From assembly GCA_051362555.1 (NCBI GenBank), contig CM120642.1:10540001-10604000 (forward strand): a DNA stretch of 64,000 nt, written 5' to 3'. The DNA comes from Lingula anatina (taxonomy: Eukaryota; Animalia; Brachiopoda). Below the pieces are notes generated by a model, which did not search any database, was not told the DNA's origin, and was given only the letters and a program-made list of their open reading frames with translations. This document shows, piece by piece, positions 1 to 59,255 of the stretch. The position numbers and the translations under genes are program-made. Within the stretch, counting starts at the first letter, position 1. Every line of letters starts with the position of its first letter.

Positions 1-3000
1 TGAAGCAGACGTTCTGAGTGACAGAACAGCCATTATTCATAAGGGCAAACTCCTATGTGTTGGCTCTCCCTTGTTCTTAAAGAGACACTTTGGAACTGGA
101 CATAAACTGACCATTAGTAAGAAACCAGGAGCAGTTGGTGAGTTAATTGATTAATTTATATATACACACATAGTATACAAATCATACATCATACATATGT
201 GTAGTGCCCAGTATTTTGTCAGATATAATCGTTTATGATCATTATTTTTATGGGCATTTGTTTTACATTTTTTAGGGGATGAATCATCTCAGAAAATCCT
301 TGATTTTGTCACCCGCCATCTTCCACTGGCTTCACTAATTGAGGAAGTTGGTACAGAGATGACATTTGGACTTCACCTAAACCAGGGACAGTCAGGAACA
401 CTGGAGAAGTTCTTCCTTGTGTTGGAGGAAAATCCAGAGTTCAAAAACATTGTGAATGGTTATGGAATCTCAGAAACAACCATGGAAGAGGTCAGTATGA
501 AAAAAGCACTTCAAGCCAGCTATCTTAAGATACGTAGATATCTTATTTGTGAATTGAATCAGTTAAATTTTGAATGATAAAAAAATTAAAATTTGAAGAT
601 TTCAGAAAAAAAATTTGTTTTGACCCTTTTAAATGAGAGAATTGTTAGGCTTGTTAAAAAACATGTAAACGTCAGCACATGCAATTTCCCTGGAATGAAT
701 TCATTTGAAGCAAAATGACTTATTATTTTACCAATTCATTGTGTCAAGCATATTTGCAACTTGTATATATTCAAGATATCTAGATCCACAATTATATATT
801 GTTCTGTGGCAGGTATTTTTGCAAGTTTGCTCAAATGCAGAATCTGGAAGACTACTGAATACTGAGCTGGATGCCTCTGTGGATAAAGAGGAAACCCCTA
901 CAGAACAGAACAGTGAGTTTTCTCTGCCAAAATCTGATACTGAAATTATCTTTTGAAACATAACTGTTTTGATAATTTCATATGAAACAAAAGCAAGAGA
1001 AATGTGATCTTGATTCACTGGATTTTAGTAGGTATTATTGTTTAAAATTTGTGTTTTAATTTCAATGAAGCTGATTATGAAATGTATTTCATTACTATGC
1101 ACTTAGTTACTACAGACCTCCTTGGATTGGGAAATTTGTTTATTACATTTTACCATATAATTATTATTATTGAATAACCTTATTTATTGTTCAATGGAAT
1201 TCATAGGAATAACCAGAACATGGAGCATGGAGGCAACTGAGAAAACACCCAGAGCAACAGGAGTCAGGCTTAGGCTACAGCAATTTGGAGCTCTGATTGT
1301 GAAAAGATTCCACCATTACAGGCGAGACTGGAAGACATTTGTCCTTGGGTTGATCTTACCCATGGCATTTCTGATTCTGGCACTTGGTCTGTCTTTGATC
1401 AAACCTCAGATGGCTGACATGCCTTCCATCCCCTTGATGCCCTCTTTGTATGATCCTGACCATGTGTTTTACAAGTAAGATGTGGGACAAGCTGTTCAAT
1501 ACTGGCAGTTACAGACAAAAATACTGTGTATTATGAGAATAATAATTTTTTCTGATAATACATTAATTGCTTGGCCAATGTTTCTGTACTACAGTTATAG
1601 CTTGTGTTTACCTTATTATGCCACTACATATGAAACTAGCAGGAAAATTCAAGGACATGTTTATCTAATGCTTTATGATGGTATGTAGACAATAGACAAT
1701 CACTGTAGCAGTATCTCTGGCATGTCCTACATAATAAAGTAACAAGCAAAATCAGTGAGACTAATTTATGTAACAATAATTTTAAAGTATGGATTAAAGT
1801 TTAAAAAGAGTGAGATGTTGATACAAGAATTGCAAAGTACTTACTTTCTCATAACATGTTAATTTTCAAATTTCAGAATTGAGAATCCAACTCCATTCAA
1901 TCAACGCTTAGCCTCCTTTCTGACTCAGGACATTGGCCTAGGCACCAGATGTATGCCAGATTTTGATGAAAAGTGAGTAGTAAGCAGAACTGTGACTTCC
2001 CTGAATGTCTTAATCCCAGTAGTTGCAGTTGTGGGTTGCCAGGCTGTAGTTCTCAGATATTATGACTTACGAATACTTTATACCAGTGCTATTACATTAA
2101 TTTTGTCATGTGGTATGGGGATATGAAATAAAATTGACTGAATAAAGATGACGTTAATAAGACATTCAGAGGATAATCTGATCTGTATAGAATTACAAAG
2201 ATTTATGGATTTTCTCATTCATTACTAGTTAATACTATGCATCATTTTTCAACTATATGATTAATGCAGATCCGTAAGCCTGTAGGGAGGGGATCCAAAA
2301 GAACCACTTGGCCAGAAAAGGTCCACTCTGAATCACAATATGATCAAGGTTCTATGCCATATCTCAAGTTGAGTCAATGGAAAGGGTAAAACAAGCCACT
2401 TTTCAGAAAAGAACCGCATGTACCCCCTGAAATTGCTGACCTTTTAATTGTTTATGGAAAGAAAAAAAACTTTCACCTTTTTAAATAAAACTCTAAATTT
2501 CAAATTAAAATTCCAGGAGTTCCTATCCCTGCTCTAACACAGCTGAACCAGGGTTTGTCACTGGTGCCAATAACTCTGACTGGCTGCCATTGTGTCATTG
2601 TGAGGGAGGCAAGCAGATATGTGAAGGAGGATCTAATACTAACCCTCCACATATGTCACTGAACACCACCGAGATCTTGTACAACCTAGATGGATATGAT
2701 GTACAGGACTATCTTGAGAGAACCCATTTTGACTTTGTCGAGAAAAGGTTAGTTAGTAAATACAGTTGTGGCTAAAGTAGGATATGGACATTTGCAAGAA
2801 ACTGTGAGCTCTAAGAAAAGGTTGCTTTAAATTAGATAACTAAAATTAAACAGGCATGATTTTATCAGAATAAAAATGGAGTTGTTTAAAATATGTCAGT
2901 TACTTAAAAGTGGAATACCATATTAATTGTTTTAACTTATTAATTAAAATTAAATAAAAATGAATAAATAAATTATATGAAAATTCTGTCCTTTTCATTT

Positions 3001-3323
3001 CTTATTTTTTCACTCAGTATAGTTCCCACATTGACACCCAACTTGAATTCAAGTGAAGATGAACTTTTCTCAATATATTTTCAGATATGGAGGTTTTACG
3101 TTTGGCAATACAAGCTCTAACTTAGATGTGGACCAGAGTATCACAGTGCATTACAACACCAAGGGTTATCATGCCATGCCTGCCTTCTATAACACCATCA
3201 GTAACCTCCTCCTGAGAGCCAACATTGACCCACTGACACAGGGAGACCCAGAGGAGTATGGTATGTATATGTATAATATGTTAATGTGCATACTCAAATA
3301 CAGGTGTGTGTGTGTGCATGCAT

Positions 3324-3378
<55 letters not shown>

Positions 3379-6300
3379 TGAGCATATAAGCACACCCTTT
3401 CCATCTCTATGCTTACTAATTGACATAAGAATTGTACAGAGTTTTGTAATCTTTTGACAGGAGATGTATATTTCATGTTATGATCTTGAAAACAAATAAG
3501 GATACAGTGTGAATGTCTGAATGAGTTTGACATAGAGCATTAAGGGGAAATATCAACACCATTATCAATATGTTATATTTTGCATCATTTGCCTTCAACT
3601 GCAGTTTCTATGTTCTAATTGGTAAAATCTCTATGTATCCCCCTAGCAAACAGTATATTTCTCAAGTTATAGTCAAATTTGATTTTAACAGGTATCACTG
3701 TATATAACCACCCATACAAGTTGAGTAAGGAACAGCTGTCCAAAGAAGCACTGTAAGTATTTATTTAAACTTCAGTTGTTTGTATGTCATTAGGGAATAC
3801 TTAAAATACTTGCCTATTGATTTGAATTTGATTCTTAATCATTGACCTGTGCATAATAGGCAGGTAAATACCATTAGTAAATATCAATATGTTTATGTTA
3901 TTGTTTGGAAATATTAGAATATTCTCTTTGGACTTTACAGATAAAAATGCTTGTGACATTCTCTTTTCAGCATAAATAAATTAGCAGATCTGGGCATTGC
4001 GCTGATGATCCTGATTTCGTTCAGTTTTATACCAGCTTCTTTCACCCTGTACCTGGTCTTGGAACGGGTATATCATGAGAAGAGACTGCAGTTTGTGTAT
4101 GGAGTGAAGTCTCTGACTTACTGGGCAGCCACCTTTGTGTGGGATTATGTAAGTTAATGTGCACCTGTTACATGCTTTTAAATAACAACATGAAAAAATA
4201 TATTGTACATCTCCATTATCTTTGTTTATCTTTTCACTTCAGTAAGCTTATGCAATCTAATATGAAAAGTGAAAAAGTACAACAGAATATTGTAATCTAA
4301 GTATTTAAAAATATAGGCTGGTGTTTCATTATAGAATGTAAATCCTTCATAATATATTTGGTCTCATTCATTAACAACAATAATTTTACATCATCATTTT
4401 ATACATCTGTTTACCAAATAAGGAACAAGTACTGTGGTGAAGATTTGTTTTACAATCAAAATAATAATCCCTAATGCATTGTTTTTATCATTATAGCTGG
4501 TGTTTTTAGTAGTGGTTGCTGTGGCCGCAGGAATCCTGGCTGCATTCCAAATTGATGCCTTTTCTGCTAATCTTAATCTAGCAGCTACAGTGTCACTGCT
4601 CATCATGTTTGGGTAAGTTTTCTACTTCTGGATTAGAAGAGGATAAGTTAATTCTGTATTGTATTGCAGTGGCTCTGCTATTAACTGAGATTGTGTGCTA
4701 GAAGAGTCTTATATGGACTAATATGCTAAACATCATATTTAGTTAAGTAGTATAAATTGTTTCTTTTAGTGGTTACAAATGTAGAGAATTAATAAGTGAA
4801 CTATGAAGGAAATCACCATAATCACTTTTACAATTGTCTGATTAATTGTTGGTCTACACATTTCAGATTTGCATGCCTGCCCCAGATGTACTTGATCCAA
4901 ATGCTGTTCAAAGATGCCTCCATGGTTTTCCTGACTCTGTTCTCATTCAATCTGGCCACTGGATTTGTTACCAGTCTCATTGTGTTCATGTTCAGCATGT
5001 TCCCTGTAAGATTTCTTTTTTTTAAAATAAATTTATTTATCCATTATATTTATAGGACAAGTTGTGGAATTGAAACATTCCTTTTGTTCAAATTTAATGA
5101 TAAATTGCAATAATTTTATATTTCCAGACCCTGACAGCTGCATCTGATGTCATAGGCTATGTGCTGGTTGTGCTTCCACAGTTTGCCTTGACATCTGGTT
5201 TGGTAAAACTCCTGAGAAACCAACTGATAGCTGATGTATATCAGAACTTTGGGCAGAATGCCTACGAGAACCCATTCAACATTGATTTTCTTGGTATCAA
5301 CTTCATTTCCCTGGCAGTGAATGGTCTGGTCTACTTGATTTTATTGATAGTGCTGGATGATAAAGTGTGCTGCAACACTGGGTAAGTGACGATGTCATCT
5401 TCTATGTTCAGTCTTCTTAAGATACTAAAATTCTTCCAGGAGTCCTCTTCTCTTAACAAATAAAATCAATTGATGACAGTTCAAAGTAATACAACTTATT
5501 TCCATTTAAAATTATTCCTATTTTGGTATAAATGATAGACTTGAATATTAAATCTTTGCAGAGATAGCTAAGAGTAGTGCACAAATGGCATAGCTCCAGT
5601 ACAAGTACAAACATAAGAACCTTTGATACTAATACTGGTATAAGCTTTTGTCTGTATTTTAGAGTCAAAGAGCAGAAAAGCCATTCAAATATGAAAGAAG
5701 ATGAAGATGTCACTGCAGAGCGCAGGAGAGTGGCTTCTAGTGCAGAGAATGACACCATGTCATGTAACACCATATCTAAGGTATAAGAGATGGCTATGGG
5801 TGCATTCACAATAAATCTAATGGACCAGCTAGTGCTCACAAGGGGACTCACGCTGAATGCAATCAGATTAATAACAGACAAACAGTCTCTTCCTGGCTTT
5901 GAGTAGAATATAAGAAAGCTGGTGATTATACTAGTACGTTGAAAACAAGAGGAGGCGTGTTAGTTTCTTAATGTGATTGCATTCAGCAAGAGTCCCTGTG
6001 GAGTTAGTGTACAGTAGCTAGTATGATAGATTCATTGTGAATGCAGGCTATGATATTAGTTAAGTGCTTGTTTTTTGGACAAAGGAGGTGAAAAATGTTT
6101 TCTCCATAGGTCCAATTAAATAATTTATCAGGGATTCCAGGTGGCGTACTAACTGAAGATTGTATTTCAGCCTTATAAACGGTGTTAGCTTTCTTAACAA
6201 CCTGATGGAAAATTTTGAAAAAAAATCATGATGGCAGTTTTAAAAAATGAAAGTGTGTGTATGAGAGAAGCCTTAACCCTAAATACATCTGCAGTTGCAA

Positions 6301-15400: not shown

Positions 15401-15520
15401 TTTTCACACCAGTAGTAGTACGTCAATATAGCTTTAAAACAAACAACTTGCAGCCTCAGCGCAGTTGTGGAGTATCTTGCAGTTGTCACCTGTTGGCAGA
15501 CAAGATTGCCACCTAGCGGA
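12430..15520 (+). promoter_or_regulatory. CpG-rich promoter/5' regulatory region of the recombinase-domain zinc-finger gene
   Basis: Marked rise in CpG relative to gene bodies. A 45-bp direct repeat at 14216/14261, reverse CCAAT (ATTGG) near 14303, TTAGTT initiator-like motif near 14325, splice donor GTAAGC at 14434, and several candidate first exons. Confidence 0.6.
12485..13276 (+). CDS. Tentative upstream coding exons (12485-12536, 13211-13276) of the recombinase-domain zinc-finger gene
   Basis: ATG 12485 gives MDDKIEKISPVKVNAVT and ends phase 1 at GTGAGA. 13211-13276 is a 66-nt phase 1-1 exon (KTILTESLIGAYDFDEEIPPV) with CAG/GTAGGC boundaries. Both join in frame to the phase-1 acceptor at 16222. 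Confidence 0.4.
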
Positions 15521-16232
15521 GAAAAGAGGCAAGCAAAATTATGTGTTGTAATGGAGTTATTGCATTTTAAATTGATTAACCTTTGTTTAATGTCAACTAA
15601 TGTTGTATAATTAAGGAGACAGCAAATGGACATTTGAAAAACCTTGACCAATCCGTCAAGTTCAGCAAGGTTGGTGAAACTGGAGTAGGTTTGACAGCGT
15701 GAACGGCTCTGAGCATTTGTTCACCTCTAGGGTCTACACATGATTATCTTTCTAGCTAGGTATATGAAAAACACATTTGGCTGCGTATTTGAGAACGGAG
15801 AAGCCATTTGAATTTTAGATCTAGCTCATTTAAATCAAAAATTTATTCAGTGTTACGTGACACCATGTTTGGACATGCAGGGGCTGGGGGGGCCGGGGGG
15901 GGGGGGGGGGCAAGAAACATCCGAATTGTTCTCGTCAGTGAGGCCATAGAAGCAGAGAAACTACTTCTATGGTGAAGCTTACCATTTTCAGGGTAATGTA
16001 CGCACAGACAGAAAATCATGTATTGTGGGAACGTTACTAATGAAGCCACTGGTAGTACTAGTAGATATCAGCCTGTAGTTTTGAACAAGCACCTCGTTGA
16101 CGAGTGAACATGCAGTTGTCAAAAACATAAGACCCAAGTGTGGTAGGTCGACTGCAGTAGATGACAACCATATTTACACACTGAGTGCCTCTTGATTTTT
16201 AAATTCTATTTTATTTGACAGAAGAAAAAAGA

Positions 16233-19200
16233 ATGTTGAAGAGTTTGCTGACCAGTGAATCCCAATACCCTGACATACATGTAGGAGTAACTGTAGTCAA
16301 AACAGGACATGAAGTCAGTTACAGCACAACAAAAAATACAAAGTGGGGAGTGAGACGATTCAGAGAGTGGGCCTCAGAGTATAATGATGAGATCACACGC
16401 CCAGATCTGGCCACGATAGAACCAGCACAGTTAAATATCCTGCTGAAAACCTTTTGGGAAAATGTCACAGGAAAAGATGCCCAAGATTTGAACCCATCAA
16501 CTTTGATCAGCATAAGGGCTGCTTTGTCTCGTCACCTCCATGATCTGAAGAGGAATATTGATATAATCAGAGATGTCGATTTTGTGTCATCCAATGCTGC
16601 ATTCACCGCTAGATGTAAACAGTATTACGTCAAAGTTGGACATGAAAAGTTGAAACAGAAGAGGCCTATTGGGAGGACTGATTTGGCCACACTGGCAGCC
16701 TATTTCAGGGATTTGTCAACTCCAAAACGTCTGCAGCAATATGTGTGGTTTAACGTATGTTACTTTTTTGGCAGCAAAGCTCGAGAGGAATTCAGAGCCA
16801 TGACAAAAAATACATTTATTGTGTGCCGAAATGACCAAGGTAAAAAATAGTTTTTATTTCATGACTTTAAAAGATTTTTGTTTTTTGTTTCTCTGCATTA
16901 TTTTCGGTACAAAGTATAGAATGGACAATTAAAGTTCAATAATATACAAAAATATCCACATATACAATCTTTTGTGATTTTCATAGGTCTGAAATATGCA
17001 TATTTTTTTCACAGCATTTGAGATGCAGAGTATAGAATAGATAAATTACATTACTGAATAATATAAGAAAGTATTCATATGATCATGATAACAACCTTTT
17101 GTGATTTTCATAGGTTTGAAATATGTAGCTTGCTGTAAGATGGAGGAGAAACAACCCCATAAAGGGGAATCCTCTTCACAGGACCAGGCCTACCCTTTAT
17201 TGAGAATGTACTCCACTGGTGGAGCTATGGACCCTGTGGAAGCTTTTGAGACCTATGTCTCCAGACTGAGTGCTGGTTGTGATAGCCTGTGGCAGGTGCC
17301 AAAGATCAGGCAGCATGAGCTAGTTGCTGCGCGACCATGGTACAAAATGGAAAGCATTGGGAAGAACGTTCTTTGTGAGTCACTAATTTGTTTAATTAAA
17401 CTAATATACGAGTCCTGTTATAATAAGGGTTATTTGTTAGTATCCTCCACCCCTCCAGAACATCTTATCATTATGTGAATTTGAAAAAAAAAGGAAAAAT
17501 GAGATTATTAATTTAATTGAAAGAAAAAACGAATATCTACATTTTAATAGTTTAGGGTAAATATTTGCCTTAGAAATTCCAATTAAATCACTTATTCCAG
17601 CTGCAATGATGACAAGGTTATCTGAAGATGCTGGTCTTGATGAAATATATACCACTCAGTGTGTACATGCCACAGCCATAGCAACCCTCTACAAAAATGG
17701 AATTGAGACTGATACCATTCGCTCGATGTCTCAGCTCAAAAATGAGAGCAGTGCTGAGCGAATTGTTGAAAGTTCTGCTAAAGATCTGGGTAGAGAGTGT
17801 AGCAGAATTCTGTCTGCATCTCTAGCAGGGACAGAAAAAGGTATACGTAAGTATTGGCTCATCCTGTTATAAATTAGTGTTAATGTTTATAATCTTCATG
17901 CAGTAAACAAATCTAGATTTGCAGGCTGTTGTTATTATGTGTTCATTAGTGAATGAAGTTCATCTATTAATCTATATGTAAAGTAAATGTTATAAATGAG
18001 TAGAGCTATACTGAATGCTCAGCTGTTTTGCATTTTGATACTATATGCTTTGAATTGTATTTGATTCTGAGATTTTTACATTCGCATCCTATGTGGCTCA
18101 AGAAAACCCATATATATATATATATATCTTTCTTTCTTTCAGGAGATCCACATACGTCCTCAGGCTCCCTCTCTCAGGCATCAGCAGACCATCTCCCTGA
18201 CCAACTGAACAATGCTGCTCTGGCTCTTGGACATGTTTCCAATTATCAGTCATTTCTTCAGGAGAATGATCATTCCATGTCTGAGGATGATTTTCCGGAG
18301 GAGGCCTTTGATAATGGTAGTCTGTTATGTTATTGATTTAATAATCAAAATTTTATGGGACTGTTTTGAAAACTTAGGATTTTTTGTCTGGATCCAAGAA
18401 TTTGGATTGTAACAGCATATCTTTTTAGATTAAAATATGGTTGAAATCTTTCTTTAAAATGTTACTGAATCAATGATGAAAAGTGATAGAAGGTATATCT
18501 AGTTGGGAAATGTCTATCTTAAAAACATGTAGAAAGTTTTGAAACTGACTTTGAATAATTTTTTATAAATGCGGAGGTTCTTTATTTTAATTAGAGTTTA
18601 TGTATATTTTTTTCAGACTCTTTTATTGAAGAAGATCCCCAAAATGATGGTGTATCTTCTTCGTTTATTGAATGGCTGCACGTGCAAGGCTTTACAGAGT
18701 CTACAGTCCATACCCTATTAGACAGCGGTTTTAAGACAAAAGAATCTCTAAATCTTTTGGATGAAGAATCTTTCAAAGAGCTTGGCATCTCCCTCCAACA
18801 AAGGCTTTTGCTGAAAAGTACAATCCAAAAGACTGTATCACAATATAAGTCATACAACAAGTTGCCCTCAAGCGGTAATGATGTTGTCAGTACGAGGACT
18901 ACTGAGGAAATGGAAGTGGTGTCATCAACACTACAGGGAACCAATGGTGTTGTCACCACAGGGGAAAATGTCTCTTTGAACACAGACCCTGGGCCGTACA
19001 AACAGCATGCTCTGCAAGGTTAGTTATGGGCAGTAGTTTTCAGACAGTGTGTGGATGTCTCATAAAAATAGTCACTGAATTTTGAGGGCCAAGGGTTGCT
19101 GTGACAATGTATCTGTCTTTAAAACTTGTTAAAATGGCTGGACGTTTGGACTGGCATGACTTTTTGATAGAAAAGAAGAATCTGGCATGTTTGTACTTTA

Positions 19201-21992
19201 AATTATTAGTTTTCAGAGGGGAGTATCAAAATAAATAATCAGTGAATATTGTTAATCTTGAGTTGTACAATGAACCATAATAACAGTCACTTATTCCCCC
19301 AAAAAATTATATATTATATTTCTATAATTTCAGTATTTCAGACACTTCTGAAAATGATACCTGACAGCAGAGAGGGATGTACTTCAAAGTCTCAAGAGAG
19401 CACTGTTGATTTGATGCACAGCATGAGGAGGTGGAAGGCTCTAAAAGATCAGTTAGCTCTGCACGGTCCAGATTCTGATGCTGCTCTGGCAGAGAAGCTG
19501 CTTGACTGTTGGTAAGTCCATATTACCTTCGTAAGACTTTTATGATTCTTATATTATTTTGTTATTTGTCATAGACTGATGAAATGTTAAATAAACAACT
19601 GGCAATACAGAAACAAATTATTCAATTATATTATTCTTATATTTTGTTTCATCTCATAAACTGGTGAAATGTTAACATGTATAGCAATACAGAAACAAGT
19701 TTTCAGTCCAAATGTTTTTTAAATAGCTGCACTCTAACCATTTTAAGGAGAGAGAACCATGCTGATGTTGGCAAAAAAGGCCAGGCTCCTGTAGAGTTGC
19801 CCCATTCACAGCACTTTACATCTGGTAACTAGTGTTTAAATGCATTGGTATGGTTGTGAATAAAATTCAGCAATTATGTTATGCTTTTTTTGCTTAAAAG
19901 AGAAAAATTACACATAATTGTTAAATTAACTTTTAGTAAAATGATGATTTAAGAGATGATTTAAATGTACGCACACTGGTATATGTCTCTACAAGTTACC
20001 GTCACCAGAGCGTGCTTGCACTGCGAAAGCAGGAGGTAAAGTTTCCTATGGACACAATTCTTACAATTCAGATCTTTAAAATATTGTAGTTGTTTTGATT
20101 TACTGTTTGATGTGGGACTTTCAGCTAGGTCAAGTTAGGAAATATTCAGTCACTTTTTTCTTTTCACAGGCACAGGCTTAAAGTCCCAGGAAAACGGCAC
20201 AAAATGTATCTCTCCGGAGAATCCCGATTTTGAACCACAAAGCAGTAGCAATGTAGATGAACAAGCAAGGGTCACATCACTGAATAAGGGAACTGACAAA
20301 CAAAAGGATGACTTGGGAAGATGTGTGAGCAAAGTGGAAGTGGGCAATTCAATGGATCAAGAGCCATCAACTCTTGTCAAAGGACAGGGGGATTTATGCA
20401 ATATAAATATCAAGCCAGACCCGGATGGAGACCAGATTGTAATAAACCACCAGCTTATTAGAATGCCATTTCCAAACCTGCAAACCTGTGATAGCATGGT
20501 GTCTGCTACAAATAGTAATAGTGTAAAGACAGATGGCACTAGTTGTTTGAAAGAGGATACCAATGCTCAGGGGGATGGAAAAGATAAGAAGTTCCGAGTG
20601 GATGTTGTTCAAGGTGCTTCTGATCCACAACCTGTGTTTTTAATCAAGAATGTTCACTCTCTTGCAACTTCCACACCAGGTTCTAATGCAGAGAAGAGTG
20701 CAGAAAAATCCAAAGTCACCATCAAAAATTCTTGCAAATGCCGGTATTGTGTCCAGGTATTCAGCGGAGAGGAGGATTGTCAAATCCATGAGAGAACTCT
20801 CTGTGACAAAAATCCTGAAAGGATGAAAAGTGACAGAAAAGCAGGACAGAATATCACTCGGAGTAATGAAAAGCTATTAAGTTGTCGATACTGCTTTAAG
20901 CAGTTTAGAGATCAAGCAATCCTGAAATCACACGAAAAAATTCACACAACCAGTTGCAAGACCTACAGGTGCCAGTACTGCCCTAAAACATTTACTACAA
21001 AGACCAGTTGTATTCTTCATGAGTTGATACATCCAGAAGCACCCAGAAAATATTATGCTTGCCGTTTTTGTCAGAAAAAGTTTGTTAATAGACTTAGTTG
21101 TAGAAAACACGAAAGACACCATTCCCCAGCCACTGTCCATCTGTGTCAATACTGCAACAAATCTTTTCATAAGAAAGAGGCTTACCTTCGCCATGAGAGA
21201 ACTCATACGGAGGAGCATCCATACAAGTGCACATTTTGTGATGAGAGATTTGCCAAGAAGTTTCTTTGTACAAGACACGAGAGCATTCATAAGAGTTTTC
21301 AGTGCAAATTTTGCTCAAGGACATTTCCAACTGTTTACACATATTCTGCGCACATGAAAAAACACAAGGTCTCTAAGCAACACCACCAGTCAGAAAATCC
21401 TGTATCCATACAGAGCGAGCAGAGCCCCAGCATGGATCAGGAGTCGATGATTTTTACACACAATCACTTAGATGACCATTTCAAATGCCAGTTCTGTGGT
21501 TTTATTTTCTACAGCAAGGAAAAACACGAATTACACGAGCTAGTAGTCCACAGAGGCAAAGAGCCGTTTAAATGTCAGTTTTGTGACAAGATGTTTGCAC
21601 AGAGGGAAAGCTATTTAGAGCATGAAATAATACACACAGGTGTTCAACCTTACAAATGTCGTTTCTGTGCAAGGGCATTTGGTGATGAACAAGACTGTAT
21701 CTTACATGAGCGAATACACCGTGTTGACAAGCCGTTTAAATGCAAGTACTGTGGAAAATCCTTTGTAGTGGAGGAACTGTGCACTAGACATGAGGCAACA
21801 CACCTGGCCAGCAAACATTACAAATGTCGGTACTGTAATCTTTTATTCACAGGAAAACAGTTCTGTCTCTCCCATGAGAGGTCTCACACAGGATTAAACC
21901 GTGTTGTTCACACCTGTTTATACTGTGACAAAACTTTCTCTGATAAAAAAGCTTGCAGAGCTCATCAGAGAACGCACGAAACGTGGCGATGA
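16233..21992 (+). CDS. Domesticated Crypton-like tyrosine recombinase (DUF3504-like, catalytically substituted) - SAM-like - 13x zinc-finger protein
   Basis: Exons 16222/16233-16839, 17114-17374, 17601-17840, 18143-18316, 18617-19018, 19334-19511, 19748-19824, 20170-21992 join in one open frame (3762 nt from ATG 16233, 1253 aa). DUF3504/CryptonA-like motifs: TKNTKWGVRRFREW, LNILLKTFW, STLISIRAALSRHL, IDIIRDVDFVSSN, TPKRLQQYVWFNVCYFFG, DPVEAFETYVSRL, PWYKMESIGKN, MMTRLSEDAGLDEIYT. SAM-like segment FIEWLHVQGF...FKELGISLQQRLLLK. The last exon has 12 C2H2 plus 1 C2HC finger. Confidence 0.88.
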
Positions 21993-22378
21993 AAGAATCT
22001 TTAGTGAAACGATCTCAAAAGGTATGAAGAATTTTCTGAAATGTGGCAGTGAATTACTCTGCTCTCATTGTTAGTTACTCCTAATTTTTCTTTTCTTTTA
22101 TGTTAACTCTTTTCTCTGTGAGGAGATTTAGACATACAAAAGTTATGTGGACATGTGCTGTATTGTCAACATAAATTCCAGTTCCAGTTCACTTACGTAA
22201 TTTCAAAGAGACAAAAGTGTCATTGGAGCTTTAGCCTCAAAGTATCTTTATTTTAGTTGTATTAACTTAAATATGCTGAAGTTGTAATTTAAAACTTTTT
22301 TTCTTTAGTTTCTTTTCAAGCTTATAAGATTCCATACTAAGTAAACTCTGATTTCTTCTTCAGACGTTACACAATTTA

Positions 22379-22615
22379 GGCTGCGATCACATGTAAAATC
22401 TATTTTCTTAAAATCTATTTGTGGCATCTTGTGATCACAGTCTATGCCCTGAATACCCCGCGGCGTAATTACTGGCAGCGCCGAGAATTATAGCTTTGGA
22501 AGTAACTGGCTCGCACTGCCCGTAATTACACCGTGGGGCATTCAGGGCACAGACCGTGATCACAAGATACCGCAAATAGATTTTTAGAAAATGGATTTTT
22601 CATGTGAACGGAGCC
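22379..22615. mobile_element. Palindromic MITE, PIF/Harbinger (Tourist-like), TTA TSD
   Basis: About 100-bp imperfect inverted arms (GGCTGCGATCACATGTAAAATCTATTTTC... versus ...GAAAATGGATTTTTCATGTGAACGGAGCC), with TTA at 22376-22378 and 22616-22618. Confidence 0.85.
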
Positions 22616-23347
22616 TTAAAGTATAATTTAAGGGGAAAATAGTTGACAGAGAGTGATTCTAAATAAAAAAAATTAAGAAAATACTGTTGAATTTCATCTT
22701 GACAAAAGATCATCTTGTTTAAAAGAAATACAAGAAAATTGTCCCAATGACTATTATCGTTTTTATTTACATAGGAGCACCATTAATCAATGAATTTTGA
22801 CTTAACATAATGTTACTTCTGAATAAAATATAAACACTAATTTTGAAATAGATGTTACATGTAATTCAAATATAATATGGTAACCATAAAAATTGAGTTC
22901 ATTAAAAATTGCACAAGTCAATATGTCTTGCACTTCAATAAATCCTTGTGGCCAGGATTAATTATACATTACATCATGGTCACCAAATTTAATAGCATTG
23001 ACAATATTATCATTGATATGGCATCAGAATGTTTGTGACTAGACAATGTGTATATGTAATGGAATGGAGACATTCATTTACATCAACAACTGGCAACAAA
23101 ACAAATGCAATGTAAAGGCATTACGTGTAATATGCAGTTAGATTGTAACATGAGGAATGCTTATAATAACAAAATCTGGAAGGCAATCAAAATTTGTTTT
23201 TGTTCTGAAAGCCATTCAAGTACCAAAAGAGCAATATATTCAGATTGCTGGCAGATTGAAAAAAACACTAGAATGGCATTCAAGCTACATGTATCTGGTG
23301 CTTCAGATTCCTCTGGTTTAAATTTATTTATGTTGACATGTGCATTG

Positions 23348-32500: not shown

Positions 32501-35500
32501 TATTCCATTTTAGTAAGCCTTGCACCTTAAAGCTTTGTTTATATTACTACAATTATACAACCAGACTCAGTTTTGGACCATATAACAGTTGCCCCCTCCT
32601 CTGAAACACCTTTTTTCCTCATTTAAGTACATTTCGCCACCCCTCACATATCAAAAGAGCTAAACTGAACACATGCTGCATACCTGTCACATAACATAAA
32701 TCCAGATCAAAACCATCTTTCTGGTATCTTCTCTTGTTTTCTGAGACCATCAGTCGAGAGGCCTTGGCAACATTCTTTCTCTCCGTGTAAATGATTCGAA
32801 TGATGAGTATGCCTCTGATCAGACGGCCAGCAATAACTAGTCTGAAAACAGCAACAAAAACATTAATTTGAAAATTTTGTTTAAATTTTTTAAATATTAC
32901 TTTTAGTTCTCCACACTACAACAGCATACACCTTATTATACACATATTATATTTTCCTATTAAGACTGTTGTAAAGTATAAACAGAAAAATGTTCACTAG
33001 TAAAATTCATGTATTCAAGAACTGAATGGATATCCCCTTTTTATGAAATATTTTTGAAAAGTGCTTTTAAACAAAAGAAGCACAGAATATGTTCCCAGTG
33101 CCGTTAATATTTTATATCAAATAAATAAAATTCACAATTCTACATAAAACTCCACAATAACTAGACTTACTTTCCCAACTCAGCATTCTGCTGTAAGTTT
33201 CTTAAATCTAAAGCTGTATATATAGGAGTGAAAATAAAGGCTATCAACACCACCACAAAGTCAACCACATCCACCCAGTTTTTGAAGAACAGTTTTGGGC
33301 TGAAAAATAACAAAAAATATAAACAGTTATCTTGAAGAACTGATTTCTTCATTCTCCTAAAATACTTTTTTGTAAGAAGATTTTTCAATACAATTTTATG
33401 TTAGTATTACTGTGTGGTTCTGACATTTTAACAACTTACAGCGAATGTTTGATACAGTGATGAAAAATCTAAGTAAAATATTGTATAATTCTAAGCCCTG
33501 TCAGCTTTTCGGTAAATTTTTGTAAATGCAGATTGCATTTTATAGTTTTTATTCATATAGACATGTATTCTTTAAATAGCAAGACTTATTCCAATCATCC
33601 TGAGAATCCAAAAAGTATAAGAATGAGTCGGTCATGGCTATAAAACACATAGAGTGACAAAACAAAAAGCACTTTTACCCACAATACATATTTTTTTGCA
33701 AGCAGGAATCCTGTAAGCGTAAAGTCAGGAATAAAGTTTGAACTTACCCTCTCCCAAATATCCTAGCAATCACCTCTGTCATAAAATAACAAGAGAAAAT
33801 GAGAGCAACAACATCAAAGCCTTTCTTGCTGTCTGTGGTGATTGATATATCAACAATCACCAGTACAATGTCTATGAGAATGAGCACCATTGTGACCAGT
33901 CTGAAGATAATATGTTCTACAACCTTCCTCACCATTAACTGTGCATGTCTAAAAGAGAGAGGGGGAAAATAATTTTATACATATAATTTTATTTTAATAT
34001 TTTTAATTGGCAAAGTGCATATTGTTATTTATGTTGCCATTGACCTTTAAGTTTTTTCAAGTTTTTTGGCAAATAACTATTTTTTACTTTTGATATCTAT
34101 TTAACATTTGTGTATAACAAGAGTACAGTAAAGCCAGCTCCTTTTTTGAACCTCTTTACAGGTTTTAGAAAACATTTTCCATTTGACAAAGTATTTTGTA
34201 ATAAAAATATGTTCCGATATACAGAAACGGATTTGCAATATAGAAAATTTATACAAACATTTAATCAAAATAATTTAAGGAGAGACATTCCATTCTTTTG
34301 TGTATTATATACCCCCCTACATTTAGAATTCAGCTCTATAGTTTATAAATCATAATCATTATATGGATGAAATTACCATGAAACAAGGCAGATTACAAAT
34401 AGCCTGAGATTTTACACCCTGGACAAGAGTAATGAAGGTGGATGTAGGTCTCAATACACTCTCTGGGTCACTTGAACAATATGCCAATTAATATGTGATA
34501 TACAAGTGATCACTAATTGTCACCAATAACCAAGGCAACCAAACCATTTGTGTAAATGTGACTAGAAGGTTGATATCTGTGTATTTATTGTGTTCTTTTG
34601 TATAAAATTTCTGTAGCATACTACAGACATATACTGTGCATATTTACTAAGGATAAGACTATACAGTACATTGGCACAACTGATTAGATCAAGGCTTTTG
34701 TCAGCTTTCTGCTCAGACAAGTGAAACATCATGAGAACAAATTTTACTGATCAAATGTGTGCATCCAGACAGAAAACGTTAATCCAATCCATTTCCAATG
34801 GTTAGGAAGTCATTCAATCTATAATTGAATCTTAACTCAGGCTTGACCATACACTCTCTGCATCATGCATGCAGAATATATATACACACTGCTTTGCACT
34901 TTTGTTTTCAGCGACTATTCTTATCTTTTGAAATATAGGTAAAAATAGATATTTTCAGAGCTCTGTTGGCAATCAGATGACCCATTGTATGAGTTATCTT
35001 TACATCAATGTTGCACTGAACATGAATCATATCCCCATAGGATGTGTTAGCACAATTCATGCAATGTGGAAGGAAGTCGAGCAAAAATCAAATCCACAAG
35101 TGAAGGATAATGGCCAAAACACATTTAATCTGTTGCAGTGATTAAATTATGCAAATGCCTCTTTCTGGAATGAAACTGATCAGTTTGCCACTTTTAAAAT
35201 ATAGTTTCAGCCAACTTACAAAACACTTGATATTGTTTCACACCCAATGCTTCAATCTGATTTCAAAGATGGAAAGAAAGAAGAAAGAAAAGGGAAAAGG
35301 AAGGAAGGCATGCCAGAATTAAAAGAGAAAGAGAGAAAAAAAGAAATAATTACAGATAGACATGTCTTACTCCAGAGGTGTTTCTGCTGTGTAACGGTCC
35401 CCTGCAGGATCCTCAATGTGTTGTGGCCCCCCTTGCTGAGCCTCTGCATCGTAAAAAGTGCCATTGGTCCCAGAAGATGCACGTATGACATGTTTATCAC

Positions 35501-41450: not shown

Positions 41451-42555
41451 TATGATTAAGCTTGCTGAGGTAACTTGTGGGCTTTAATTGCATTTTGAAA
41501 ATGGGCATGATTCCATTATACTTTACATCTTTCTGTAATTTTTCCCACACCTTTAGCCTTGTTCGATCAATATAACAGGCTTTACATCTCCAAGAATGTT
41601 TTTTAGCTCTTTGCTTTGACCTAGCTTGACCAACCTTTGATGGTTAAACCAAATTTTTTTGTTCAATTTTTCAGCTTTGCTTTTCAAATACTACATAAGA
41701 TACACACACATGCATGTAATGGACAAATCCAAATATGACCTTGAAATTGACCTTTGACCTTCTTTTTATGGAAAAAATCTTATTTTTTTTCTATTTGCCA
41801 GACTAGTACATCTCCAATATCAAAAGAGATACAGTACACGTACTCAGCACGCCCAGTTATTGCTGGCCATGAATAGAAAAAACATGTGACAACCCCACAT
41901 GTAACCTTGAATTTGACCTTTGACACACTTTTTATGTATCTATAACCCAGTATGTTGCTGCAAAAATGGTTTAACCCAGTATGTTGCTGTATACATACTG
42001 CAGTATAGTATTATTTTTTATTTATGTTTTCATGTTTACAGCGTGTGTTAATGATACCTGTACAATAAAATGCAGGCTGCTTGGCTTATGCTGGCTTGTT
42101 GGAAGGTATCCTTCAGGGTTTACCCACCAAATCAAATTTTCCTCGAGAAAAAAATCTACTCCATTCTATTAGTACTTATAAATCACTGCTCGCACCTAAA
42201 TGTACAGTACTGTAAATAAAGATTGGGTGCGAAATAAATCTTATAAGATAAATAAATAATTTAGGCATGCCTATAATTTTTATCATTACGTTTTGGGTGT
42301 TATTTAATTTCTATTTCTCTTCACACTAACCATCAGAGTATCTGATATTCATAAAGCAAACTCCTTCAAGTTGAAAGAAACTAATATAATAAGGGGGGCG
42401 TTTTCAAAAATTAGGTCAAGCACAGAATGGAATAGTTTTAAAAATACGTTTTCTGCATTGCCTGTCAATTATAAATGCTGATTCACGTTCCCCCTTAATG
42501 CCTTAAGAGAAATCTAAAAATTAAAATACGTGAAGCTATCCTAATCCAAATAATA

Positions 42556-42806
42556 ACTTACTTTCAAAAACTTTTTACGTACTTCAGTGCAGTGCAGCAG
42601 GGTGCGTGTACTTTTCGCACCACTGTCGGTCCAAACAGCTTTACCTAAAAAGAATTTTGATTCGTCAGTCTCAGTTTGTCCTACCAATCACAACAAGTAA
42701 AACAAACATAATCTCGTTCAAATGTATGGCGGGACACACAGACAGAGACATGCATTTTGTAGGCAGACGGGGATACATTGTAAGTAAATTGGATGGTTTC
42801 CTGAGG
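42556..42806. promoter_or_regulatory. Probable bidirectional promoter for VSP (-) and ANKLE2 (+), including a VSP non-coding first exon
   Basis: CpG-rich patch, minus-strand donor GTAAGT (ACTTAC at 42556-42561), CCAATC at about 42684 and ATGGCG at 42726. The VSP ATG exon has an acceptor at 36041 that needs an upstream exon. Confidence 0.55.
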
Positions 42807-45800
42807 ATGGAGGAGCTAAAATCAAGCATCAAGCAGCTAAGCGATGAAAGCCTTCTCTCTGAGTTGCAGAAATCTGGCATCCAAGCTGGTCCAATTTTGT
42901 CAACAACACGTCCACTTTGGGAAAATAAGCTCATAAATTTGGTTGCAAAAAAGAAGGGGCTATTAACCCCCGAAGGACAAACAGAGAGAGAGGTAAACAT
43001 GAACTATGGTAAAGTCTCGTCAAATAGCGTCGACAGTGTGCCCAGTAGCACCGTTGCAAGCCAGAGTACATGTAGATCGGAGGACCAAAATGATGGAAAG
43101 ATGGATGAAGGGAAGAAAGAAGCACCTGCTTTTTATTACGGCGTCAGTCTACCGTCTGATGCTGATCTGACTAATGAGGAAGGTGTGGTATATCGTATGT
43201 AATTCGATTATTTTCCTATTTGTATATGAGCTCAATTTTAAAATGGAGAATGCAGTGAAGCTCACTTAATAAAAAATTAGCAACACTCAATCCTGAAAAA
43301 GAAAAATTGGGGGCATATAAATCCAAATGAATTACTCTATTACTCCTATAATATTTTTAGATATCCTCCACATGCCCTTGTATGTCATATATATATACAT
43401 ACACAGAACATCACTTGAACTTAATTAATACATATTTTCCATATTTTCAGTAAAAGAAGCAGTTTTCACTGATAAGATTGAGGCACTGAAATTTGCTAAG
43501 AAATTCAAAGGAGCAAGATTTAAGGCTTTCAAGAACCAAGAAGAAGCAAATAATTTTGCTCAGCAAGTGGCAGACTTTTCACAGTCCCCTGCTGCCAAAC
43601 AAACAGCCTTGCCCCAGGTATTTTCAGGTCATTTATTCAAATGTCACCAATTACTCTTGATTCTGTCAACCAGAGGCTGAAAGAAATTGTGATTATTAAA
43701 AAAAGAAATGGTTGTTTATTATTTCATTTTTATTCAGTTGCTTAAATTCCTAAATCTGGAAAGTATAATCTTCTATTAAAATGAAAAAAGTATGCCCAGT
43801 TAACCAAAAGAATATGAATACTATCACCATCTTTGTCTCAGGGATCACCAGACACTGTTGCTGGAGAAACGGGTACAGGAACCATCACAGAGTCTCTGCC
43901 TTTTAAAGCCCCTAAGACTCAGGACTTGGTCAAGCTTAGGAAAGCCATTGAAACTGATAACAGAGACACTTTTGAAAACCTAGTCTGGAGTAATCCAAGA
44001 TATCTTATAAGTAGTGGGGACACACCTGCCATATTACAAGTAAGAAATAGCATCATTCGCCTGTGTATGATATTTCCATTTTTATGCTTTGAATGGTATG
44101 TCTATAAGATTCATTTTAAGAAATATAAGATAACAGGGATGCACCAGTATTGCTTCAAGTATCAAATGATAAATGTGGCCTTGATGTAACATAAAAAGAT
44201 AAATAACATGGTCTGGAATAAATTGAGAAACATTTATATTATAATAAAGATAAAAGTTTTGCAAGGCTTAAAAGGACACAAAAGAGGATTTTCGCGCCAA
44301 AATTGATTTATCCTGATTTATCCCGAGGTTAACACTACTTTTCCGCGATTTACCAACCTTTAATCTATCATTCCCGGCACTCGCCATCGCTCTGTAACAT
44401 TTTTGGAAAATACAATAAAAAGAAAACCTCCGCTTAAGCGGAGGTTTACCAACAACCACCTCCATTTTCATAATTGAGCTCTCTAGACTTCCGGATCTCG
44501 CGAGATTCTCGTATTGCGACCTAGTTAAAACCAGTTCAAGCTGCCGGGAAAGGACAACGTGAAACAGGAGGCTCAGTTATGCTGGGAGTCCTTCGAAGAA
44601 GCGAAGACAGATAACAAAAAGAAAAAAGAAACAGCCTTTACAAAAAACATGCGTAAAACAGTGTATCAGCAAATGTACGACAGGCAAACAATAAACACCG
44701 GCGAGGAAGAAGGCAGATGAAAACCTGCTTGGGTGAATGGATACGAAGAATGGCCTGGCCGCGAAGTATTTACTGGATTTGTGAGTACCATTTACAATAA
44801 TCTTTGAGATAAGACACCAGTGAAAATATTTATTAAGCACAGAGATTTATGTTTATTTACGTGTGTTCGTTGTATATCTTAACGATTGTCAGGCTCGTCT
44901 GTCAAAATATGCCATGAAATTGTAACTAATATGAGTGGTATCGATGACAGAAATTGCAAGTGTTGCTCATATGTCGACTCTGACAGGGTTTGGGTTAGTT
45001 TATAGAGCAAAGAAAGTTTAAATAAAAACGGACATGGTGGGAGATACTAGTCTCATTACATATACATTACAATGACCAGGGCGAATTTTTGACTTACCGA
45101 GGGCACATTTCTTGTGCCTCTAACATCTAGGCATACCACAGTAATTAAGACATATGACAAAGATGCTATTTCTTTAGGCATCTAAATCCCAAAATGAATG
45201 TGCAGAAACTGTTATTGTATCTAAGTTTAACCCAATGTTAAATGGCATGTCAACTATAAGTGAAAATAAATAGTAGTATTTTGATTTTATATTTTAAAGA
45301 CAATTTGTCTCCTTTTTACATTAAAAATAAATAAATCAGAAAGGGGATATTGCATGTTTATGTTTGGTACATCTCTCTAATGTATTAAATAGTCCAGAGT
45401 AATAATTTAGATCATACAATTTTAACTTCCAACCAGTATTTCGGAGATTAAACCAATATGAAGTGATCAAGAAACTTCAAAATTAAGTTGTAGTTAATAC
45501 TAGTGCAGTTGAAGATGACAGTCTAGATAATTTAAGGTGATCATATTGAGAAAAATGGCATTTATACTTATTTCAGTTGAGTTTTATACTTATTTCAGTT
45601 ATGTTTTTACATAATTTTTCTCAAACTCGATTATCTTATTTTATGTACTGTTGCTTTTTATGTACAGACACAGATGTGTCTGTACATATTGCCATCACCT
45701 GCGTCTGTCGTCGCCGATGCCGATGCCGATGCCGTCGCCGGTGCCGTGCACTTTCCTTGTAAACACGATAAGTGGAAGGCAGTTTCACTTTTTGGCTTAA

Positions 45801-57079: not shown

Positions 57080-59220
57080 CTAAGCCTGTGCAATATCTGT
57101 GAAGAACTGCAGAATGTCTTCCACACTAAACTCCAGGGTGATGTTAGACGCTGGGTAACACTTGGCAATCAGGTGTTCAAAATGTTTGTACTGCTTGAGA
57201 AACTCATCCTGCATTGAATGCCATACAACCTGGATTGATAAAACATTAATGTGATTATTCTTAATGAGGACAAAAAATGTAAATTTTTTTATATGAATGA
57301 CCTTTTCTAGCTACTTGACTATAATTTTGAACTGATTGATAGTTTTTTCCACAACTGGCCTGTTTATAATCCATTATATTTGACTATAAATTTTCAATTA
57401 TGTCCAAATTTTTTACCTGAAATAAGTTCTCTTCTTCACATAAGTGCTTTTCAACCTTCTTTCTCAAATGTTCCAAATTCTTCTTCACCTAAAAAAAGTA
57501 AAATTTACACTCAGCGCAGCTGGCTGAAATATCCAAGTTGGCACATGCCCAGCAGGAAAAGTCCAAACCTAACAATTATTTTTCATGATATTATTGCCAT
57601 TTATTATAAATCTAGATTCCTTTTCACACTTTATATCCCAATATGACATAGTGATTTTTTTTAAATTCTAAACCCTCTGTCACTGTTACATAAAATATTT
57701 CGAACATTCATCAATTTTCATAACTCACAAATACTTCATTTAATGACGTTAAATTCCTTTCCATTGCTACTTAATAATCTTTTTGAGATATAACAAAGTA
57801 ATTTTTGTAAATTTTATTATGGTATAGATAAAGTACGAGGCGCTGAGCTTTACGAGAAATAGAGCAGATAATTGGCGAGGCTTCGCCTCGCCAATTATCT
57901 GCTCTTTTTCTCGTAAAGCTCAGCGCCGAGTGCTTTATCTGGCTTAAAGCACGAGTAATTAACCCTGAGCATTGGTGCGTGGAACGCATTCGTGGATGTC
58001 GTGACTTTACACGAAAAAAAGCACGGCGCGACCCATTGTCTTTTGACAGGAGAGTGCTTTAAAGTAAAATAAATGATGCTGTATGCTTAACTCTCCATCC
58101 CTTACCTCTTTCCCAGGATATTCTTTGATGACTTTTCTCAGCTCTTGTTTGCTGTAGGCCAACTGGTACCCCACTTCATCTTCCTTTACTCCTGAGGCCA
58201 CCTTGCTCTCAATACCTTCAAAAAATGTCTACAAACACAAAGCGTCTGAGCATCACTCACTGTATTACAATGCATAAATGTTATTAATAATTCTGAAAGT
58301 ATGTTTTGTATTGGAGTAAAAAAGAGGGAAACACAATTTAAAAGTCGTATTTGTTAATTTAACATCTGAAGAAAATTGTGTAATTATTCTGAAGTAATGA
58401 AATCAAGTACAACACAGGTAACAAAATAAAGGCATCTTGATATTTCTGCTCTTCTAAATTCTGTAAAAGTCACCCATAAAATAAATTCATAAATTTTTTT
58501 AGGAACTTGAACAAAATAATCTGATTTACAAAAATACACAGTATTTAACAAAAATTCAGTTTTAAAATATATTTCATTTCACTCTGTCTTCTTACATTGA
58601 GTTTCTCCAAGGGTCTTCCCAGGTAAGTTGTCACATAGGCCTGTAGGTGCTCTTGGTACCTCTGTCTGGCATCTTTACGTTCTTTTTCCAAACAGCTGAT
58701 CTTTAATTGGGATAATGTGGCATACAAATGGTGATAATTTTCTGAAGAAAAAATAATTTAAAACTGACGTATCATTTTTCTTATCACAGTGAAAATGTAC
58801 TAAAGCTTATTCTTAAACATTATCATCAAATTAAATTATAAATTTATATAAAACTAATAAATTATGAGCAAGATCGGGTATATTTCATACTATTATAATC
58901 AATATGTGGTATTTATTGCCTTGAAATTAAAATTAATTATTTTTCAATACTTTATCCATTGAGGCAAATGTTCATAGACTGTTTCAAGACTGCTGTGACC
59001 TGTTAAAGGTAACATAATTCAAATTCACAAAGAACCAAACAGCAATGCCCTGTTTTCTTACCCATAAGGACCACATCTTTGGGAGTCTTGGGGTGATCTG
59101 TGCTAATTCTCAGAAGCTGCTCAAAGACAGTTCTGATGAGTTTGCTGTAAGCTTTATCAAGGTCAGCTCTCCTGTCTGAACCTTGGAATATAGCCTCTGC
59201 CTGGTGGGCAAAATCCTGAA

Positions 59221-59255
<35 letters not shown>

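What the first reader, a model, noticed from the sequence alone, without database searches (positions are those of the whole stretch)
16233..17840. Crypton-type tyrosine recombinase domain with the catalytic motifs substituted
Seen: three intact, spliced, in-frame exons encode a complete DUF3504/CryptonA-like fold. Where YR/Crypton proteins have FGxRGRE this reads FGSKARE (R>K). YTNHSLRAT-type reads YTTQCVHAT (HxxR>QxxH). SGH-type reads SQL (H>L), and SLxxY-type reads SAERI (nucleophile Y>I). Known: tyrosine recombinases need R-K-HxxR-H/W-Y, and vertebrate ZMYM2/3/4, QRICH1, KCTD1 and KIAA1958 and fly WOC carry Crypton-derived DUF3504 domains. Inference: losing every alignable catalytic residue while keeping the ORF, core and introns points to domestication as a non-cutting DNA-binding or bending module rather than decay. 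The catalytic Lys position could not be placed with confidence.
Basis: partly seen in the sequence, partly recalled or inferred. Interest (0 to 1): 0.8.

Follow-up and report, generated by a model that had tools for sequence, protein, structure and literature searches.

The report
Disarmed transposon recombinase in zinc-finger gene
An expressed, spliced gene of the brachiopod Lingula begins with a transposon-type DNA-recombinase domain that has lost its cutting residues but keeps its predicted fold, followed by thirteen zinc fingers; it is likely a separate taming of a Crypton transposon into a gene regulator, in which the dead domain would grip DNA without cutting it.

Summary
It is 98.6% identical to Lingula anatina LOC106164839 and is transcribed and spliced. 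All six catalytic positions are substituted (R>K, K>Q, H>Q, R>H, H>L, Y>I); only the acidic E185 remains. None of 126 complete homologues lost all six. Non-catalytic conserved columns are kept about as well as in intact relatives, and the model folds like Cre (Z 16.6). In a tree it sits among intact CryptonA recombinases, apart from KCTD1 (p-AU 8e-5); WOC/ZMYM could not be placed. Selection evidence is mixed: pN/pS 0.22-0.29 in exon 1 against a diverged lineage, about 1 against a close allele. The basic surface is partly eroded, so DNA binding is plausible but unshown. Pfam DUF3504 itself does not hit. Crypton domestication is known (Kojima & Jurka 2011). This looks like a further independent case with an architecture I found in no paper. 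No orthologue was found. The scan had no note on this sequence, only a different woc-like gene elsewhere.

The parts
15508..15528 (+). 3' end of an upstream, apparently non-coding exon with a GC donor (its start was not mapped)
   Evidence: Loose end of 8 X1 reads before 16220 matches 15508-15526; the end at 15528 and the GC donor are inferred from the sequence; the frame upstream holds stops and no closer ATG
16222..16839 (+). Coding exon 1: ATG 16233, core-binding domain (about residues 28-140) and start of the catalytic domain; K182 (16776-78) replaces the first Arg, E185 is kept
   Evidence: joint to 17114 in RNA; ALOG/integrase core-binding match on model residues 29-142
17114..17374 (+). 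Coding exon 2: beta-hairpin with Q216 (17152-54) at the catalytic Lys position; conserved P-V, Y-x-S-R-L, WY, GKN
   Evidence: both joints seen in RNA
17601..17846 (+). Coding exon 3: Q309/H312 for HxxR, L335 for H/W, I344 for the nucleophile Tyr; C-terminal helix 347-365
   Evidence: read depth stops at the 17846 donor
18143..18316 (+). Coding exon 4: acidic linker
   Evidence: joint 18316>18617 in 18 X1 reads; the joint 17846>18143 is in the RefSeq protein but was not listed as a read row (repeat filter at 18100-18144)
18617..19018 (+). Coding exon 5: probable SAM domain (about residues 445-505)
   Evidence: Pfam SAM_2 E 0.0057, below cut-off; five-helix model pLDDT 78; top Foldseek rows are SAM domains but none reaches E 0.001; ASK3 SAM by sequence E 0.006
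19334..19511 (+). Coding exon 6: short helical-looking motif of unknown family
   Evidence: Atlas first hit 0.83, a lead only
19748..19824 (+). Coding exon 7: linker
   Evidence: joint 19824>20170 in 31 X1 reads
20170..21992 (+). Last coding exon: 12 C2H2 fingers plus one C2HC-type finger (residues 837-1251, 20733-21977), then the stop
   Evidence: Pfam zf-H2C2_2 E 1.6e-30; pattern count; RNA depth 25-42 over 20023-21924 in X1

Best explanation
This is an expressed Lingula gene whose first three coding exons descend from a CryptonA tyrosine recombinase that has lost all six catalytic residues, and the protein is likely a zinc-finger transcriptional regulator in which the dead recombinase would act as a non-cutting DNA clamp. 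Shown: ancestry, loss of the catalytic residues, expression, splicing, the zinc fingers and retention of the fold-defining residues. Predicted: the Cre-like two-lobed fold and the SAM fold. Inferred: a Crypton was captured at the 5' end of a SAM/zinc-finger gene, independently of KCTD1 and probably of WOC/ZMYM; it gained two introns; selection kept the fold while the active site drifted. Inferred and untested: the 13 fingers pick the sites, the clamp grips or bends adjacent DNA with weak specificity and lengthens residence, and SAM oligomerises the protein.
For: Best of 2763 hits are 29-44% identical; most of the top rows are intact recombinases carrying Pfam DUF3504 and Phage_integrase. All six positions are lost, in 0 of 126 complete homologues. 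Columns conserved at >=85% are kept 25 of 30, against 26/30, 27/30, 25/26 and 28/30 in four intact relatives. Model pLDDT 86; Cre Z 16.6, rmsd 3.6 over 278 residues; QRICH1 of Zincore is the first Foldseek row. The tree places it in a 15-row clade (100/96) made mostly of intact enzymes, with the catalytic columns left out; a clade with the four KCTD1-like rows is rejected, p-AU 7.7e-5. Stranded spliced RNA. Exon 1 against the diverged study-P3 reads has 9 nonsynonymous to 12 synonymous changes, pN/pS 0.22-0.29, p 0.0007-0.005, and a 9-nt deletion there keeps the frame. Precedent: MrpR is a dead-recombinase DNA-binding repressor (PMC10516654), and Kojima & Jurka propose DNA or protein binding for DUF3504.
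Against: Only 16 of 30 conserved basic columns are kept (intact mean 69%, 5th percentile 50%); net charge is +8 against an intact median of +13. Window against the close X1 allele gives 11 nonsynonymous to 4 synonymous changes, pN/pS 0.83-1.06. The domain differs from RefSeq at 10 of 372 residues against 7 of 882 elsewhere (p 0.014). Conserved positions still differ between lineages (G136R, H218N, T153 versus K). No orthologue outside Lingula was found. The model was built on an alignment of mostly intact enzymes, which favours their fold. WOC/ZMYM/QRICH1 and KIAA1958 were not in the tree. The joint from exon 3 to exon 4 was not listed as a read row.
Confidence: 0.55

Rival explanations
1. It is domesticated, but the domain works as a protein-binding scaffold (cofactor recruitment or self-association) and DNA contact is left to the fingers.
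For: Eroded basic surface with a kept core. The closest solved eukaryotic relative, QRICH1, works in a complex with SEPHS1 on a zinc-finger protein (PDB title; passages). Kojima & Jurka name protein-protein interaction as the second option.
Against: Net charge is still +8, within the intact range of 4-25. R95, R100, R184, R188, K286 and K336 and the first helix motif TKWGV are kept.
Confidence: 0.25
2. The domain is a captured passenger that was once constrained and is now eroding; selection acts mainly to keep the frame open for the SAM and fingers.
For: pN/pS about 1 between the window and the X1 allele, against 2 nonsynonymous to 8 synonymous among the downstream rows shown; 3.5-fold more residue differences than the rest of the protein; no orthologue found.
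Against: pN/pS 0.22-0.29 in exon 1 against the diverged lineage (0.39-0.52, p 0.015-0.064, if all 7 hidden rows were nonsynonymous). Structural columns are kept as in intact enzymes over a 0.86 substitutions/site branch. The two ratios do not differ significantly (11:4 versus 9:10, p 0.17), and excess replacement polymorphism is common under weak purifying selection (established knowledge).
Confidence: 0.15
3. It is a shuffled duplicate of the ancient WOC/ZMYM/QRICH1 domain rather than a fresh capture from a transposon.
For: QRICH1 is the top Foldseek row and Pfam QRICH1 hits weakly; WOC/ZMYM domains also carry introns.
Against: Identity to QRICH1 is 16% against up to 44% to Crypton-type proteins. 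Exon 1 finds no PDB sequence at E<=10 although QRICH1 is held. No MYM fingers; the domain is N-terminal. No WOC-type protein was among the 64 of 150 hits scanned with Pfam.
Confidence: 0.04
4. It is an active or trans-complemented recombinase, or part of a mobile Crypton.
For: Its nearest relatives are intact enzymes and the fold is predicted to be whole.
Against: All six residues are lost and there is no Tyr between residues 321 and 405. It is fused to SAM and fingers, whereas animal Cryptons have no C-terminal domain. There is no second copy in the window, and most X1 read differences are fixed, as from one locus.
Confidence: 0.01

Closest known systems
Crypton-derived DUF3504 host genes: KCTD1b, KIAA1958, WOC/ZMYM2-4, QRICH1 (Kojima & Jurka 2011, PMC3212892)
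   Same: Catalytically dead CryptonA recombinase domain inside a longer, expressed protein with other regulatory domains; loss of the Tyr and the second Arg.
   Different: Also loses the first Arg, the Lys and both His positions; joined to a probable SAM and 13 C2H2-type fingers, a layout not among the genes described there; tree position apart from KCTD1; found only in Lingula, whereas those genes are conserved across vertebrates or bilaterians; below the Pfam DUF3504 threshold.
Intact CryptonA tyrosine recombinases (for example P0002, P0004, P0005) and Glomhoppers (PMC13465315)
   Same: Two-lobed fold, 33-44% identity to the nearest rows, shared non-catalytic motifs.
   Different: They keep R-K-H-R-H-Y and mostly lack further domains; this one keeps none of the six and is a host-gene fusion.
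Zincore (QRICH1-SEPHS1 on ZFP91-DNA, PDB 9HJT)
   Same: A Crypton-derived domain next to C2H2 fingers on DNA; top Foldseek row (E 3e-8), VIA Z 12.6.
   Different: Zincore acts in trans and includes SEPHS1; here domain and fingers share one chain; identity is 16% and the lobes are arranged differently (rmsd 17). The primary paper was not readable, so what QRICH1's domain touches is not known to me from a call.
MrpR/YopR of phage SPbeta and yeast Ndc10/Cbf2
   Same: Recombinase folds reused as non-cutting DNA binders.
   Different: Separate origins; MrpR keeps the Lys and the Tyr; neither carries zinc-finger arrays.

Membership tests
Active tyrosine recombinase / CryptonA transposon | Core-binding plus catalytic recombinase fold | tested here: met
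   Predicted model pLDDT 86; Cre Z 16.6, rmsd 3.6 over 278 residues
Active tyrosine recombinase / CryptonA transposon | Catalytic R, K, H, R, H/W, Y | tested here: not met
   K182, Q216, Q309, H312, L335, I344; only E185 kept
Active tyrosine recombinase / CryptonA transposon | Recombinase-only ORF without a C-terminal domain | tested here: not met
   1255-residue spliced ORF with probable SAM and fingers; definition
Active tyrosine recombinase / CryptonA transposon | Dispersed copies in the genome | tested here: inconclusive
   No genome held; no second copy in the window; one protein returned in each of three searches
Pfam DUF3504 (PF12012) | Score at the gathering cut-off | tested here: not met
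   No hit at E<=1 on P0001 or on single exons, though 40 of 42 relatives hit at E<=0.001
Domesticated Crypton-derived host genes (as a kind) | Descent from a CryptonA recombinase | tested here: met
Domesticated Crypton-derived host genes (as a kind) | Loss of the catalytic Tyr and second Arg | tested here: met
Domesticated Crypton-derived host genes (as a kind) | Expressed as part of a longer host protein | tested here: met
   Spliced stranded reads and RefSeq model; 4 of 7 coding joints were listed as read rows
Domesticated Crypton-derived host genes (as a kind) | Conservation under purifying selection across species | tested here: inconclusive
   pN/pS 0.22-0.29 (exon 1) against diverged reads but about 1 against a close allele; no orthologue found
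WOC/ZMYM/QRICH1 | MYM fingers and/or a C-terminal DUF3504 domain | tested here: not met
   No zf-FCS hit; the domain is N-terminal
WOC/ZMYM/QRICH1 | Tree position and shared intron sites | not tested
   No whole member sequence was returned by any search for use in the tree
KCTD1 isoform b | BTB domain and a clade with KCTD1 | tested here: not met
   No BTB hit; p-AU 7.7e-5 against a clade with P0074, P0075, P0079, P0122
KIAA1958 | Intron-free DUF3504 exon | tested here: not met
   Two introns inside the domain; definition; tree position not tested

The most novel reading that the evidence does not exclude
A one-chain counterpart of Zincore: a disarmed Crypton clamp, captured independently in brachiopods, locks its own zinc-finger array onto DNA. 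With the degenerate-recombinase fusions seen in a snail, a mussel and arachnids, this would make dead Crypton clamps a recurrent, convergently recruited partner of zinc fingers across animals.
Probability: 0.12. Interest if true: 0.7.

Novelty: new variant of a known kind. Interest (0 to 1): 0.42.

Why it matters
Kojima & Jurka (2011) counted four animal Crypton domestications and reported no function for the domain. This gene looks like a further, lineage-restricted event with a cleaner loss of catalysis than any of 126 comparable homologues, and its intact relatives are still close enough (about 40% identity) to compare residue by residue. Because domain and fingers share one chain, deleting the domain gives a direct test of whether such domains bind DNA or stabilise zinc fingers, which bears on human QRICH1, ZMYM2-4 and KCTD1. 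The ceiling is modest: the kind is known, the organism is hard to work with, and the function is unshown.

Tried and rejected
No whole genome is held, so copy number and synteny were not tested. No RNA holder was listed by index; the runs came by species label, and laying them gave the evidence used. Three word-index searches returned only P0001 (1 of 1177, 7988 and 7570 candidates); these are weak negatives, and the last covered only 1051-3000 residues. P0001's own cluster was not among the 150 listed representatives, so a near relative could hide in it. Exon 1 against PDB sequences gave 0 hits at E<=10. A two-copy complex prediction of residues 25-368 gave no verdict (score 0.01, alignment not used) and is not used as evidence. 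The Atlas gave only a lead for residues 570-640. Residues 373-836 match none of the fetched homologues, so none looks like an orthologue. Rejected: K215 as a shifted catalytic Lys (the column aligns to Q216); a displaced nucleophile (no Tyr at 321-405); the repeat at 15925-16153 as a Crypton terminus (it resembles abundant expressed copies, while the coding part has diverged 0.86 substitutions/site; inference). The Zincore paper is not held. Look-ups of earlier findings by sequence and by place were empty.

Full report
Gene structure. The interval holds three exons, 16222-16839, 17114-17374 and 17601-17846. They read in frame from ATG 16233 and continue through five more exons to a stop at 21992, giving 1255 residues. 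A search with exon 1 returned one protein among 1177 candidates: Lingula anatina LOC106164839, XP_013398327.1, 1254 aa. It has the same exon joins and differs at 17 residues. The organism is inferred from this match. Neighbours are ordinary genes: ABCA upstream, a voltage-sensing phosphatase downstream, then LEM/ankyrin and Sec3 exons.

Expression. I laid 5 of the 9 listed RNA runs. In X1 the first mates lie on the minus strand over all coding exons, which in most stranded libraries means a plus-strand RNA. Listed joints are 16839>17114, 17374>17601, 18316>18617 and 19824>20170, 4 of the 7 coding joints (27 joint rows were not shown). The joint 17846>18143, which ties the recombinase to the rest, was not listed; a repeat at 18100-18144 was skipped. 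Depth is 27.5 before the donor, 2.3 in the bin holding it, 0 in the intron and 23.2 after, with no loose end listed there, and RefSeq makes the same join. The fusion is therefore well supported but not read off directly.

What the domain is. A full HMMER scan with residues 1-372 gave 2763 hits at E<=0.001; I analysed the 150 listed. The best are 29-44% identical. Of 42 scanned first, 40 hit DUF3504 and 25 hit Phage_integrase at E<=0.001. The Atlas agrees, with scores of 0.98 to DUF3504/integrase clusters. The Lingula protein itself does not hit DUF3504 at E<=1, so I call it Crypton-recombinase-derived and do not file it in the Pfam family. AlphaFold2 on 119 sequences gave pLDDT 86 and pTM 0.82. 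Foldseek ranks QRICH1 in Zincore (9hjt_H, E 3e-8, 16% identity) first, then Cre. VIA-align gives Cre Z 16.6 (rmsd 3.6, 278 aligned), 9hjt Z 12.6 (rmsd 17.1, 257 aligned) and an ALOG domain on residues 29-142 at Z 8.3.

Catalysis is gone. The core is R, D/E, K, H, R, H/W, Y (PMC10516654, table 3 passage). The window has K182, E185, Q216, Q309, H312, L335, I344; homologues have R 136, E 136, K 128, H 130, R 130, H 114, Y 110 of 150. Of 126 hits with letters at all six columns (24 with gaps were set aside), 95 keep six and none keeps zero. There is no Tyr between residues 321 and 405. The loss is specific: 51 of 67 non-catalytic conserved columns are kept (Fisher p 4e-4), and 25 of 30 of the strongest, against 26/30, 27/30, 25/26 and 28/30 in four intact relatives. 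I infer lasting constraint on the fold after catalysis was lost.

Origin. With catalytic columns removed, a 141-row FastTree and a 36-row IQ-TREE (rows chosen by me after seeing the first tree) place the window among mostly intact enzymes, in a 15-row clade at 100/96. A clade with the four KCTD1-like rows is rejected (p-AU 7.7e-5). No call returned usable WOC, ZMYM, QRICH1 or KIAA1958 sequences, so independence from them rests on architecture, on 16% versus up to 44% identity, and on exon 1 missing QRICH1 at E<=10.

Selection, for and against. One search showed 40 of 47 difference rows. I left out two intron rows, two exon-4 rows and two rows seen only in X9. Against the diverged study-P3 reads, exon 1 has 9 nonsynonymous to 12 synonymous changes (pN/pS 0.22-0.29, p 0.0007-0.005) and the whole domain 13.5 to 12.5 (0.32-0.42, p 0.008-0.035). 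If all 7 hidden rows were nonsynonymous, exon 1 would give 0.39-0.52, p 0.015-0.064. P3 depth over exons 2-3 is only 1-5 reads. Against the close X1 allele the count is 11 to 4 (0.83-1.06), and the domain differs from RefSeq at 10 of 372 residues versus 7 of 882 elsewhere (p 0.014). Constraint is real but weaker than on the rest of the protein and may be relaxing.

The rest of the protein. Exon 5 is a probable SAM domain: Pfam E 0.0057 below cut-off, a five-helix model, and SAM domains in 8 of the first 10 fold rows, none at E<=0.001. The last exon holds 12 C2H2 fingers and one C2HC-type finger.

Mechanism. I commit to a zinc-finger regulator with a non-cutting clamp (0.55). The fingers would choose the sites, the dead recombinase would grip or bend nearby DNA, and SAM would oligomerise the protein; all three steps are inferred. 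The weak point is the surface: 16 of 30 conserved basic columns are kept (intact mean 69%, 5th percentile 50%) and net charge is +8 against a median of +13. A protein-scaffold role is therefore the main rival (0.25), then an eroding passenger (0.15).

What is known. Kojima & Jurka 2011 (PMC3212892; I read parts 1-5 of 7, no supplements) describe four animal domestications and candidates in tunicates; none has a C2H2 array. The Glomhopper paper (PMC13465315; abstract and Results parts 1-2 of 3) says most animal genomes have several DUF3504 genes and many lack catalytic residues, so a dead copy alone is common. Seen as passages only: MrpR, Zmym4 (PMC10579616), and two mentions of Zincore (PMC13538652; bioRxiv 10.1101/2024.10.23.619601: it 'locks' zinc-finger factors onto DNA). 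PMC13310916 and PMC13017510 gave reference entries only. The Zincore paper itself was not seen. Searches for this gene or layout listed nothing on it by title or abstract start; I did not open the rows. Unread supplements, especially Glomhopper's animal sequence lists, and subscription papers could mention it.

Similar fusions occur in databases: Gigantopelta (22 fingers, 4 of 6 residues kept), Sinanodonta, a catfish, and an arachnid pair. They fall on separate branches, so such capture recurs. That lowers the surprise of this case and makes the pattern the more interesting thing.

Verdict: a real feature, a new variant of a known kind, interest 0.42.

Noticed in passing
window 15925-16153: Interspersed repeat in the first intron: deep reads on both strands with loose ends. 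Three X7 reads fit a splice from a donor at 15992/15993 inside it to 16222, so it may be an alternative 5' exon in that lineage.
   Followed up: partly
window 22375-22619: Palindromic element of about 245 bp (arms 81% alike) behind the stop codon, abundant in RNA from other loci; MITE-like.
   Followed up: partly
window 16910-17125: Tandem duplication in the intron (16910-16998 and 17026-17125, 76% alike) that copies the splice acceptor; the listed reads use the second copy.
   Followed up: partly
window 15528/15529: Apparent GC-AG intron in the 5' leader.
   Followed up: partly
window 17693-17838: X1 depth jumps from 8.6 to 27.5 inside exon 3; this may be sampling noise or an internal start giving a transcript without the recombinase.
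   Followed up: no
window 19405-19511: Short motif (residues 588-623) of no named family; Atlas hits to small chordate proteins at 0.83 are a lead only.
   Followed up: partly
window 21987-21989: The last codon is CGA here, while the RefSeq protein ends one residue earlier, probably a stop polymorphism.
   Followed up: no
proteins P0027, P0034, P0172: Spider (Uloborus) and scorpion (Centruroides) proteins share a degenerate N-terminal recombinase, a zf-FCS finger and a second core-binding domain, and group at 100/100: a candidate arachnid domestication.
   Followed up: partly
proteins P0017, P0030, P0053, P0103, P0110, P0123, P0139: Further DUF3504 fusions: C2H2 arrays (Gigantopelta, Sinanodonta, Neoarius), KRAB (two), BTB and MIEAP; some may be gene-model artefacts.
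   Followed up: partly
window 239-5382, 32622-32915, 42534-52182, 59006-59467: Neighbouring ABCA, voltage-sensing phosphatase, LEM-plus-ankyrin (ANKLE2-like, name recalled) and Sec3 exons.
   Followed up: partly
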